A stretch of 64,000 bases of DNA from Escherichia coli (lineage in GTDB: Bacteria > Pseudomonadota > Gammaproteobacteria > Enterobacterales > Enterobacteriaceae), in the NCBI RefSeq assembly GCF_002854065.1, contig NZ_CP024147.1. One strand, written 5' to 3'. How positions within the stretch are numbered: the stretch's first letter is position 1; the number at the start of each line of letters is the position of its first letter. The position numbers are program-made. Shown piece by piece: positions 55,801 through 58,800 of this stretch.

Positions 55801-58800
55801 AGGCACCGACTTTTTCACCAACTACTACCATCACCGGCTGAGTCAGTAACACTTCAGTAAATGCGAAGGCATCCCAGGCCAGCGTTTTCTGTGCATGTGA
55901 GAACAACATTTTTGTCGCACCTCCCGGTTGTTGCCCGCGTGGTGTTTTATAGTAGTCAGTTGCTTCATAAACATCGCGTTCGGTCAGTCCATGGGCTTTT
56001 GCTGCATCCAGGCTGGCGGGAAGTAATTCGTTGATCTGTAATTCTCCACCACGAGCCTCTTTGGTTCGTTGCGACGCCATTGCATTCAATGCGCCAATCG
56101 GATCGTAATTGCTGAAACCTTCCCGAAAAAGACGCCCGATATTAACACCCGTAATACTCACTACAGCTTTAATTCGTTTTTCTGTCAGCGCGGCATTAAT
56201 GGCATAGCCACCCCCCCCCACACACACCCAGCACGCCAATGCGTTCAGCATCAACATATGGCAGAGTTACTGCATAATCGATAACACGGCTAATATCCTC
56301 TACGCGCTGTGTCGGATCTTCTATCCAACGAGGCTCCCCACCAGATTCTCCCTGGAAACTGGCGTCATAAGCGAGAACGACATAGCCTTTTTCAGCCAAT
56401 GCCTTGCCATAGATATTGCCAGACGTCTGCTCCTTACAACTGCCAAAAGGATGGACGCTGATAATCGCCGGATACTGTTTTGACTCATCAAAATTTGGTG
56501 GAAACTGAATATTGGCAGCAATATGCCAGGCCATATCACTATTGCGGATTTGAATATGTTTCATTACAGAGTTTCCTCAAAGAACGGAGCTAATACTGAA
56601 ATTGCTTCAGCCACATAGGCTTTGCCGTCATAAAGATCCATATGGTTTGCGCCTTCAACAATGTGATAGCGTTTATCCTGGCTTGATGCCCGATCGTACA
56701 GGTCGTCACTCATCCATTTGCTCCCTGCCTGGCTGCCCGCCACAATCTGCGTCGGCTGAGTCAGGTACACTTCCGCCATATGGTAAGCATCATAGGTAAT
56801 AATCTGGTTAAGGCTGCGCAAAGTAGCGTAACCCGGTGCTGTTGGATACTGCGCGCGAGGGGTGTGGTAATACTCCCAGGCCTGACGCAGTTCTTCGTTC
56901 GGCGCATCGGACTCCTTCATTGGTGCCAGTGGCATAATGGCGTATTCTCCGCTGCTAATATCGCTGGTTCTGGCGTTTGAACCCGCGTCAACGTATGGCA
57001 GGGCATCAATAGATTTCACATTGTTTTCCCAACCATTACGGAACATCGAACCAATATTGACCGCACTAACGGTACCGATGGCCTTGATGCGGCGATCCTG
57101 AATTGCAGCATTGGCTGTATATCCTGCACCGGCACAAATTCCCATCGCACCAATTCGGGTATTGTCGACATAAGAAAGCGTTGTCAGGTAATCAATCACG
57201 GCACTGACGTCTTCAGTACGAATGTATGGGTTTTCTAACTGACGCGGCTCGCCGCCACTTTCACCCTGATAAGATGCGTCATAAGCAATAGTGACAAATC
57301 CCTTTTCCGCCAGTTTTTCGGCATAGGTCCCGGCCGTTTGTTCTTTAACGCCCCCACCTGGGTGAGATACCACAATTGCCGGATGCTGACGGGTTTCATC
57401 AAATTTTGGAGGGAAATAGATCACTGCAGACAAAGAGATGGTTGGATTATTGCTGTTAGTGAAGCTGACTTTATTATTCATCATTCCGTTCCTCATGGAG
57501 TTGTCGGTTCGTTTTAACGGTTGGTGATATCACTATAGATATTGATCATTAAGTTGATTAGACCCAAAATCATGATTAGACCTATCATTTAAATGATTAA
57601 TAGATTGTATGGAGATACTGAATGAAGCGTGAAGAAATCGCTGATCTGATGGCGTTTGTCGTCGTTGCAGAGGAGCGTAGCTTCACTCGCGCAGCAGCCC
57701 GCCTGAGCATGGCGCAGTCAGCTTTAAGCCAGATAGTGCGCCGTATAGAAGAACGATTGGGATTGCGGCTTCTGACGCGAACCACGCGCAGTGTTGTACC
57801 CACTGAAGCGGGCGAGCATCTTTTGTCTGTTCTTGGCCCTATGCTGCATGACATAGATTCTGCCCTGGCATCCCTGAGCGATCTGCAGAACCGCCCATCC
57901 GGGACAATACGTATTACTACTGTAGAACATGCAGCAAAAACGATATTGTTACCAGCCATGCGCACATTCCTGAAATCACACCCTGAAATTGATATTCAGC
58001 TTATCATTGATTATGGTTTGACTGATGTCGTTTCTGAGCGTTTTGATGCAGGCGTCCGTCTGGGTGGGGAGATGGATAAAGATATGATCGCCATTCGAAT
58101 CGGGCCAGATATACCAATGGCTATTGTTGGCTCACCGGATTATTTTTCCCGCCGAAGTGTTCCAACGTCAGTGTCACAATTAATAGATCATCAGGCAGTT
58201 AATTTGTATCTTCCCACATCGGGTACAGCAAATCGCTGGAGATTAATACGCGGTGGACGCGAAGTTCGTGTTCGCATGGAAGGTCAGCTTTTACTGAATA
58301 CGATAGACCTGATCATTGATGCTGCAATTGATGGGCATGGATTGGCGTATCTACCTTATGATCAGGTTGAGCGGGCTATTAAAGAAAAAAAACTGATACG
58401 TGTTTTGGATAAATTCACACCAGATTTACCCGGTTATCACCTGTACTATCCACATCGTCGACATGCTGGCTCGGCATTCTCATTATTTATAGATAGGCTG
58501 AAGTATAAAGGTGCTGTTTAGCACTACTTGCTGATACATTAATTTAATTCTTCTCTTAACGTATTCTCAGTTCCTTTCAACGTTTTGGTTATTTTTTATT
58601 CTTCGTACAATGGCGACAGATGCTGATTATGATACCGAAAACTGGTTTGAACGTGCGAAGCCCGAACGTAGTGTTCGGTGTTCTATGTGCTTTGCCGCAT
58701 TTTGGCGTCTATTATTTACACTAAATCTGATTTAATATATTGATACATAAAACATTTTATGCTTCCTGTGTCACTTTTTTGATGGAAGTTGTTTGCATTT

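What the first reader, a model, noticed from the sequence alone, without database searches (positions are those of the whole stretch)
56190..56240. ycjY-paralogous hydrolase gene interrupted by a +1 frameshift in a G9 homopolymer next to a (GT)4 tract
The two ORF-track fragments (122 aa and 208 aa) are both clearly homologous to the adjacent ycjY (for example RIGVLGVCGGG versus RIGAMGICAGAG) and overlap at GTGTGTGT-GGGGGGGGG-TGG on the coding strand. Deleting one G restores a single ~310-aa frame with a GGGG motif aligned to ycjY. A frameshift exactly in a homopolymer is the signature of either slipped-strand mispairing or a homopolymer sequencing error. K-12 (from memory) carries ymjD and ymjC only as remnants, so this strain may preserve a nearly intact ancestral ycjY-ymjD-ymjC-mpaA operon.
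Basis: seen in the sequence. Interest (0 to 1): 0.5.

Follow-up and report, generated by a model that had tools for sequence, protein, structure and literature searches.

The report
Slippage-broken ymjD hydrolase gene
A dispensable E. coli hydrolase gene next to ycjY is broken here by one extra G in a run of Gs; the run arose from a silent mutation and now varies from 7 to 12 Gs among related strains, so this is ordinary gene decay at an unusually unstable spot.

Summary
Window 56211-56219 is C9 on the + strand, which is G9 on the coding strand, and it follows (GT)4. It splits a 310-aa YcjY paralogue, the full-length ymjD, into 122-aa and 208-aa ORFs. Removing one G restores the frame.

The run encodes the glycines of an invariant G-x-C-G-G-G-G-Y nucleophile-elbow motif. 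All 22 orthologues checked encode this motif with G-runs of at most 5 nt. About 800 complete E. coli genomes have GGG GGT GGT GGC and show no length change.

One haplotype acquired a silent GGT>GGG change that made G8. In that haplotype, complete genomes carry G8 (70), G9 (211), G10 (73), G11 (6) and G12 (at least 3). Short-read assemblies add G7.

The window's nearest complete relatives have G8, but independent short-read assemblies of the same haplotype have G9. The extra G is therefore most likely a real, recent replication slip. Some G8 calls in long-read genomes are clearly artefacts.

The gene has also been lost by deletion (K-12 and most E. coli), nonsense mutations, loss of a GT unit and an IS insertion. 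This favours neutral decay over adaptive phase variation. RefSeq already annotates the gene as frameshifted in O157:H7.

The parts
56211..56219 (-). G9 homopolymer (C9 on the + strand). It carries one G more than the in-frame G8 allele. It encodes the Gly residues that follow the nucleophile Cys116.
   Evidence: The tract is the only indel against strain CUWW06.
56220..56227 (-). (GT)4 dinucleotide run directly upstream of the G tract. A silent GGA>GGT change lengthened it from (GT)3.
   Evidence: One GT unit is lost in O39:NM strain F8704-2.
56196..56564 (-). N-terminal fragment ORF of 122 aa, ending ...GVCGGGWLCH*. It is identical to Z2444 of O157:H7 EDL933. Its ATG overlaps the ycjY stop codon (TAATG).
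55631..56257 (-). ORF of 208 aa holding the C-terminal 190 or so residues of the hydrolase, including the conserved His in SHYELYD. The homologous part starts at the tract.
55631..56564 (-). The whole frameshifted gene, which is full-length ymjD: a DLH-like alpha/beta hydrolase with a Cys nucleophile, 310 aa when the tract is G8.
56564..57496 (-). ycjY, the intact paralogue (PGAP aa).
   Evidence: PDB 5xb6.
54975..55625 (-). Full-length ymjC, an NmrA/SDR-like NAD(P)-binding oxidoreductase. K-12 keeps only codons 1-46.
53956..54684 (-). mpaA (murein tripeptide amidase), the last gene of the PgrR-regulated ycjY-ymjDC-mpaA unit.
   Evidence: PMC5934670.
57622..58521 (+). pgrR (ycjZ), the divergent LysR-type regulator of the unit.
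   Evidence: It co-occurs with ycjY-ymjD in distant taxa.

Best explanation
The gene is the full-length form of ymjD. It is a cytoplasmic alpha/beta hydrolase with a Cys nucleophile, paralogous to YcjY, in the PgrR-controlled ycjY-ymjD-ymjC-mpaA unit.

Its invariant motif G-x-C-G-G-G-G-Y was ancestrally encoded as TGT GGG GGT GGT GGC. In one E. coli haplotype a silent GGT>GGG change fused G5 and G2 into G8. This haplotype is carried by O157:H7, O55:H7, O145:H28, the window's lineage and others. A second silent change, GGA>GGT, made (GT)4.

A run of eight or more G is prone to strand slippage during replication. In the window's lineage one G was added, giving G9. Translation then leaves the frame after Gly119 and stops five codons later. 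The 122-aa product has the Cys but lacks the C-terminal 190 or so residues, including the conserved His, so this is a null allele.

Shown here:
- the frameshift;
- the direction of the silent change;
- the length polymorphism (G7-G12) confined to the uninterrupted haplotype;
- several other independent inactivations of the same gene.

Inferred:
- the mechanism is replication slippage;
- the loss is selectively neutral, or nearly so, because the gene is dispensable in E. coli.
For: Anatomy
- Searches show G9 and the frames. One search shows 42% identity to YcjY.
- Searches show the alpha/beta-hydrolase fold families. Cys116 aligns with the Ser of GLSMG in a serine-hydrolase homologue. The best solved relatives are YcjY (5xb6) and PA2218 (2hdw).

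Direction of change
- strain 204446 and Escherichia sp. E4742 have GGG GGT GGT GGC.
- all 22 orthologues, from Serratia to Streptomyces, keep CGGGGY with G-runs of only 2-5 nt.

Census of 5,426 complete genomes
- About 800 carry the exact interrupted allele. Every sampled row has the in-frame length.
- In the uninterrupted haplotype: G8=70, G9=211, G10=73, G11=6, G12 at least 3. I subtracted 10 partial hits from each exact count.

Heritability of tract length
- 29 cattle isolates from one study all have G10, and an outbreak cluster has G10.
- The 122-aa G9 product carries the EDL933 locus name Z2444 and an ECO57 UniProt entry.
- Across mixed public sources (NCBI, Logan, ENA, partly unlisted), the G9 and G10 products each occur on at least 1000 contigs, G12 on 363 and G7 on 135.

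The window itself
- It is 99.98% identical to CUWW06. The only indel is the tract, with 3 SNPs over 24.9 kb.
- Short-read assemblies L008 (100% identical over 3.6 kb) and L007 carry the same G9, and about 20 similar places were not shown.

Dispensability
- The gene is deleted in about 4,000 of the 5,426 genomes.
- Other lesions: Q71* in O145, W230* in strain 100416, W13* plus loss of a GT unit in O39:NM, and ISEc20 inside the tract in O55:H7 DEC5E.
Against: - The two nearest complete genomes both have G8, so the extra G is unique among the closest finished relatives. The raw reads of this genome were not available.
- Long-read assemblies do miscount this tract. RM9873-C1 differs from RM9872 over 40 kb only by two G-run deletions, one of which is G5>G4 and breaks the neighbouring SDR gene. 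Part of the census spread is therefore noise.
- dN/dS of about 0.15-0.25 between intact alleles rests on fewer than 10 substitutions. It suggests the gene was constrained until recently, which sits uneasily with complete neutrality.
Confidence: 0.8

Rival explanations
1. Assembly or base-calling artefact. The isolate really has G8 and an intact 310-aa gene, and the ninth G is a homopolymer miscall.
For: The closest complete genomes, CUWW06 and 100416, have G8. The repaired protein occurs exactly on 180 contigs. Homopolymer miscalls are demonstrable at this very locus in other assemblies.
Against: The window has no other indel against CUWW06 across about 37 kb, which contains many shorter runs. 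The identical haplotype with G9 recurs in independent short-read assemblies L007 and L008, with about 20 similar places not shown. The miscalls seen here are undercalls, whereas this would be an overcall. CUWW06 or 100416 could themselves be undercalled; 100416 carries another suspicious 1-nt deletion in puuE.
Confidence: 0.1
2. Adaptive phase variation. The G tract is a contingency-type switch that turns ymjD on (G8) and off (G9, G10) reversibly, and selection maintains the switch.
For: The tract length lies in the range of known poly-G switches. G7 to G12 occur among close relatives. Near-clonal pairs differ only at the tract, for example Z1766 (G9) and Z1767 (G8) over 40 kb. With G8 in an O157:H7 background the ORF is intact and is annotated as a protein.
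Against: - Out-of-frame lengths dominate: 287 of 363 exact-flank genomes. In O157/O55 the fraction is roughly 94% by my count of the listed rows.
- The gene also carries irreversible lesions in several lineages and is deleted in most E. coli.
- The product is a cytoplasmic enzyme, not a surface or restriction-modification function.
- The in-frame G11 allele adds a Gly to a motif that is invariant in 22 of 22 orthologues.
- Some G8 calls are artefacts.
Confidence: 0.08
3. Recoding. The full-length protein is still made from the G9 allele by a programmed +1 ribosomal frameshift or by transcriptional slippage on the G run.
For: Runs of the rare GGG codon could allow some tRNA re-pairing. This is an inference; nothing here tests it.
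Against: The site is not conserved. Orthologues and most E. coli have a single uninterrupted ORF with mixed Gly codons, and the length varies from G7 to G12. No RNA family or evident stimulator lies at the site. In E. coli, transcription insertions concentrate in A/T runs and deletions are rarely tied to homopolymers (abstract of PMC5574713). Rescuing G9 would need a 1-nt transcript deletion.
Confidence: 0.02

Closest known systems
Split ORF Z2444 (122 aa) of E. coli O157:H7 EDL933, annotated in RefSeq as 'alpha/beta hydrolase, frameshifted'
   Same: It is the same gene, the same G9 tract, and an identical 122-aa N-terminal product.
   Different: The window is not O157:H7. Its nearest complete relatives (CUWW06 and 100416) have G8, and its C-terminus differs from the O157 allele (L305 versus F, and one residue longer). 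Its G9 is therefore probably a separate slip from the one in O157.
Poly-G/C contingency loci of Campylobacter jejuni, Neisseria and Haemophilus (from established knowledge; the reference list of PMC8928963 names examples)
   Same: It is an intragenic G run of 8 or more whose length changes shift the reading frame, and it is polymorphic among close relatives.
   Different: There is no evidence of selection for switching. Out-of-frame states predominate, the gene also decays irreversibly and encodes a cytoplasmic enzyme, and the tract is a recent accident of one silent substitution.
YcjY (PDB 5xb6) and PA2218 (PDB 2hdw), DLH-like alpha/beta hydrolases with a GxCxG nucleophile elbow
   Same: The repaired protein aligns end to end with both (E=7e-68 and 3e-40). 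It shares the Cys elbow and a conserved C-terminal His.
   Different: It is a distinct paralogue with 42% identity to YcjY. Its orthologues in other genera are 63-89% identical and always sit beside a YcjY orthologue. The substrate is unknown. A weak, sub-threshold match to the UilS lactonase model (76 bits against a cut-off of 400) is not membership.
The K-12 pseudogene remnants ymjD' and ymjC'
   Same: They lie at the same locus and have the same ancestry.
   Different: K-12 lost the genes through two deletions, corresponding to window 54811-55474 and 55614-56506. The window keeps everything and carries only the 1-nt insertion.

Membership tests
Frameshift pseudogene caused by homopolymer slippage | A reading-frame break that lies exactly in a mononucleotide run, with both halves homologous to one intact protein | tested here: met
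   Intact alleles of 310 aa exist in other strains.
Frameshift pseudogene caused by homopolymer slippage | Length variation is specific to the uninterrupted run and absent from the interrupted allele | tested here: met
   G7-G12 occur in the uninterrupted haplotype. About 800 interrupted alleles showed no length change in any sampled row.
Frameshift pseudogene caused by homopolymer slippage | The extra base is present in the organism's DNA and is not a read or assembly error | tested here: inconclusive
   Independent short-read assemblies of the same haplotype carry G9, but the reads of this genome cannot be seen. Artefacts at this tract exist elsewhere.
Phase-variable (contingency) locus | A simple sequence repeat in the coding region that is long enough to be hypermutable | tested here: met
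   G8-G12.
Phase-variable (contingency) locus | Reversible, high-frequency on/off switching within a clonal population | not testable with these tools
   Only consensus assemblies are available. Near-clonal pairs differ at the tract, but an artefact cannot be excluded.
Phase-variable (contingency) locus | The switch is maintained by selection: the on state is functional and recurrent, and the gene is otherwise intact | tested here: not met
   79% of exact-flank genomes are out of frame. Nonsense mutations, an IS insertion and deletions occur in the same gene.
Programmed ribosomal frameshift or transcriptional-slippage gene | The shift site and the split frame are conserved among orthologues | tested here: not met
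   All 22 orthologues and about 870 E. coli genomes have a single frame with no long run.
DLH-like alpha/beta hydrolase with a Cys nucleophile (YcjY/PA2218 group) | Alpha/beta-hydrolase fold | tested here: met
   Pfam DLH, Peptidase_S15, Abhydrolase_1 and Hydrolase_4. Full-length match to 5xb6 and 2hdw.
DLH-like alpha/beta hydrolase with a Cys nucleophile (YcjY/PA2218 group) | A G-x-C-x-G nucleophile elbow at the position of the catalytic Ser in serine-hydrolase relatives | tested here: met
   GVCGG aligns with GLSMG of chain 9pjb_A and with GICAG of YcjY. The motif is invariant in 22 orthologues.
DLH-like alpha/beta hydrolase with a Cys nucleophile (YcjY/PA2218 group) | A complete catalytic triad and demonstrated hydrolase activity | not tested
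   A conserved His (SHYELYD / NHMDLYD / SHVDLYD) is seen in the alignments. The acid residue and the enzymatic activity were not examined.

The most novel reading that the evidence does not exclude
A single silent GGT>GGG substitution created a true simple-sequence on/off switch in E. coli, a species generally thought to lack such contingency loci. Under this reading, lineages such as O157:H7 toggle a PgrR-regulated Cys-hydrolase between G8 (on) and G9/G10 (off) at appreciable frequency, with ecological consequences.
Probability: 0.08. Interest if true: 0.55.

Novelty: new member of a known kind. Interest (0 to 1): 0.3.

Why it matters
The finding has mostly practical value.

- The tract is a hotspot where genome assemblies of O157:H7, O55:H7, O145:H28 and related E. 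coli disagree. It will generate spurious or unstable differences in pan-genome, k-mer and cgMLST analyses.
- It is a clean natural example of how one silent substitution can turn a strictly conserved Gly-rich catalytic motif into a mutational liability.
- It shows that the K-12 ymjD'/ymjC' remnants derive from a widely conserved pgrR / ycjY-ymjD-SDR cassette. That cassette also occurs in Alphaproteobacteria without mpaA, which bears on what this 'peptidoglycan-recycling' regulon really does.

It does not reveal a new mechanism.

Tried and rejected
- I assumed at first that the window was O157:H7, because the gene is 99.8% identical. A 24-kb comparison showed it belongs to another lineage, closest to CUWW06.
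- I tried to use exact-protein look-ups as a short-read census of tract length.
- Escherichia sp. E4742 turned out not to be a useful outgroup, with dS of about 0.03. I replaced it with a scan of species-representative genomes.
- Literature searches for ymjD, Z2444, ymjC, YcjY and homopolymer papers found no description of this tract. The Escherichia homopolymer survey PMC8928963 does not mention it.
- Rfam and promoter/terminator scans found nothing at the site.
- I did not run a structure prediction, because solved relatives align end to end.

Full report
**1. Observation**

The coordinates and the description are accurate. Window 56211-56219 is C9 on the + strand, which is G9 on the coding (-) strand. 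It is preceded on the coding strand by GTGTGTGT at 56220-56227.

ORFs 56196..56564(-) of 122 aa and 55631..56257(-) of 208 aa overlap at the tract. Changing the run to G8 gives one 310-aa ORF, and G11 gives 311 aa. G7, G9, G10 and G12 all terminate a few codons after ...GVCGG.

The repaired protein is 42% identical to the adjacent YcjY over 299 residues (E=1e-78), and CGGGGY aligns with CAGAGY.

A 9-run in 64 kb is not improbable from base composition alone. The evidence lies in its exact position at the frame break and in the comparison with other genomes.

**2. Locus context**

The region is the E. coli ycjG / mpaA / ymjC / ymjD / ycjY / pgrR / mppA neighbourhood. RefSeq annotation of matching genomes gives, in order:
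- an SDR-family oxidoreductase (full-length ymjC);
- this alpha/beta hydrolase;
- ycjY;
- the divergent pgrR.

A published regulon table lists ycjY-ymjDC-mpaA under PgrR (PMC5934670).

In O157:H7 strain Z1766 the gene is annotated 'alpha/beta hydrolase, frameshifted'. The 122-aa product is identical to Z2444 of EDL933. The pseudogene itself is therefore already on record.

K-12-type genomes retain only window 55475-55613 (ymjC codons 1-46) and the part from 56507 onward (ymjD codons 1-19), after two deletions. Only 1,270-1,282 of 5,426 complete genomes still carry the gene.

**3. The protein**

Pfam places it in the alpha/beta-hydrolase superfamily, with hits to DLH, Peptidase_S15, Abhydrolase_1 and Hydrolase_4. 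The best solved relatives are YcjY (5xb6, E=7e-68) and PA2218 (2hdw, E=3e-40), both aligned end to end.

Cys116 of GVCGG aligns with the Ser of GLSMG in a serine-hydrolase homologue. The G tract therefore encodes the glycines immediately after the nucleophile.

The G9 product of 122 aa keeps the Cys but lacks about 190 C-terminal residues, including the conserved His of SHYELYD. I infer a null allele.

**4. How the tract arose**

Strain 204446 and Escherichia sp. E4742 encode the motif as GGA GTG TGT GGG GGT GGT GGC. The window has GGT GTG TGT GGG GGG GG(+G)T GGC. Two silent changes therefore made (GT)4 and fused G5+G2 into G8.

E4742 proved too close to serve as an outgroup (dS about 0.03). 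I scanned species-representative genomes instead. In all 22 orthologues examined, from Serratia, Citrobacter, Shimwellia, Rhizobium, Afipia, Nitrospira, Streptomyces and others, the peptide G-[IV]-C-G-G-G-G-Y is invariant. The longest G run in that segment is 2-5 nt. The long run is therefore derived and specific to E. coli.

The same scan shows that pgrR / ycjY-ymjD, often with the SDR gene, is a conserved cassette far beyond Escherichia. mpaA adjacency is seen only in Escherichia.

**5. Census of tract length in 5,426 complete genomes**

I used 78-81-nt queries that differ only in the number of G and counted exact matches. About 10 partial hits appear in every search. They are visible as 16 records in the top identity band against 6 full-length exact rows, so I subtracted 10 from each count.

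| Allele | Genomes |
|---|---|
| G8 | 70 |
| G9 | 211 |
| G10 | 73 |
| G11 | 6 |
| G12 | at least 3 |
| Interrupted (ancestral), exact | about 800 (815 in the top identity band) |

Every sampled row of the interrupted haplotype has the in-frame length. Length instability is therefore specific to the uninterrupted run.

Exact-protein look-ups in a 15-billion-protein collection, drawn from mixed public sources (NCBI, Logan, ENA), find:
- the G9 and G10 truncation products on at least 1000 contigs each;
- the G12 product on 363 contigs;
- the G7 product on 135 contigs.

**6. Real variation or sequencing noise?**

Both occur.

Evidence that the variation is real:
- Tract length is consistent within clones. 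Twenty-nine cattle isolates from one study all have G10, and an outbreak cluster has G10 with one G11.
- O55:H7 CB9615 has G11, and O55:H7 strains DEC5D and TB182A have G10.
- The EDL933 (Z2444) and ECO57 database entries encode the G9 product.

Evidence of noise:
- O145 strains RM9872 and RM9873-C1 differ over 40 kb only by two G-run deletions in RM9873-C1.
- One of these is G5>G4 and breaks the SDR gene, which is the pattern of homopolymer undercalling.
- Some G8 calls are therefore suspect.
- O157 strains Z1766 (G9) and Z1767 (G8) differ over 40 kb only at the tract. This could be either a real change or an artefact.

**7. The window itself**

The window is not O157:H7. Over 24.9 kb it is 99.98% identical to strain CUWW06, with 3 SNPs and one indel, and that indel is the tract (G9 against G8). 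Strain 100416 also has G8.

Apart from an IS1 insertion, the window has no other indel against CUWW06 across about 37 kb. It does not look like an error-prone assembly.

Short-read assemblies of independent runs carry the same haplotype with G9. L008 is 100% identical over 3.6 kb and L007 has one mismatch, and about 20 further similar places were not shown. The repaired protein occurs exactly on 180 contigs.

I conclude that G9 here is most likely a real, recent +1 slip in a sublineage whose relatives mostly keep G8. A miscall remains a 10% possibility.

**8. Neutral decay or a switch?**

- Out-of-frame lengths make up 287 of 363 exact-flank genomes. In O157/O55 the fraction is about 94% by my count of the listed rows.
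- The in-frame G11 allele adds a Gly to an invariant motif.
- The gene has been inactivated independently in several other ways:
  - Q71* in O145:H28, whatever the tract length;
  - W230* in strain 100416;
  - W13* plus loss of one GT unit in O39:NM F8704-2;
  - ISEc20 inserted inside the tract in O55:H7 DEC5E, a partial-hit pattern seen in about 10 genomes;
  - deletion in most E. coli.
- Intact alleles give dN/dS of about 0.15-0.25 on very few substitutions, so the gene was probably functional until recently.

Taken together this is recurrent loss of a dispensable accessory gene, accelerated in one haplotype by a mutational hotspot. Recoding is unlikely for three reasons. The site is not conserved. 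Nothing RNA-like lies at the site. Transcript slippage in E. coli favours A/T insertions rather than the 1-nt deletion that rescue would need (abstract of PMC5574713).

**9. Novelty and score**

The pseudogene is already annotated and the mechanism is textbook. What I could not find in the literature is the extent of the G7-G12 polymorphism, the silent-substitution origin of the tract, and the breadth of the cassette. I rate it a new member of a known kind, with interest 0.3.

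Noticed in passing
window 38309-39076 (also 3106-3873): An IS1 copy of 768 bp, flanked by a 9-bp target duplication, sits inside the 5' end of puuA (glutamate-putrescine ligase). It is absent at that site in the near-identical strain CUWW06. A second identical IS1 lies at 3106-3873. Putrescine catabolism is probably disrupted in this strain.
   Followed up: partly
L018 (O55:H7 DEC5E) 2046-3507: An IS110-like ISEc20 element is inserted exactly within the poly-G tract, leaving G6 on each side. About 10 complete genomes give the same partial-hit pattern. 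This suggests the G run may be a preferred target for the element.
   Followed up: partly
L019 (O39:NM F8704-2) about 1515-1545 and 1225: This strain has (GT)3 followed by G8, so one GT unit has been lost (a -2 frameshift). It also has a W13* nonsense codon. The dinucleotide run next to the G tract has therefore slipped too.
   Followed up: yes
L015 (O145 RM9873-C1) about 20794; L006 (strain 100416), corresponding to window 43667: Single-base deletions in short G runs frameshift the SDR gene (G5>G4) in RM9873-C1 and puuE in strain 100416, relative to near-identical genomes. These are probably homopolymer undercalls in those assemblies, and a warning about 'complete' genomes.
   Followed up: partly
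L020-L049 (genome-contig loci): The divergent LysR regulator plus the YcjY and YmjD paralogues, often with the SDR gene, form a cassette conserved at 63-92% amino-acid identity in Serratia, Citrobacter, Shimwellia and many Alphaproteobacteria that have no adjacent mpaA. The patchy distribution suggests horizontal transfer and a function not tied to murein-peptide recycling.
   Followed up: partly
L010 (SRR29704545) at the tract: The T after the run is replaced by G, giving twelve consecutive G with no change in total length. This is either a further substitution that lengthens the run or a read error.
   Followed up: no
PMC12711010, feature table: A machine-learning study of O157:H7 clinical outcome lists one predictive sequence feature in 'putative protein YcjY'. 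Because automatic annotators may also label the ymjD fragments as YcjY, the feature could be this unstable tract. I did not check this.
   Followed up: no
L011 (SRR6148341) 2082-3001: In this short-read assembly of an E4742-like Escherichia, ycjY itself is split into 155-aa and 160-aa ORFs, while ymjD is intact.
   Followed up: no
window 4352-4554 (+): This is the only Rfam match above the gathering score in the window: the enterobacterial sRNA STnc180 at 201.8 bits.
   Followed up: no
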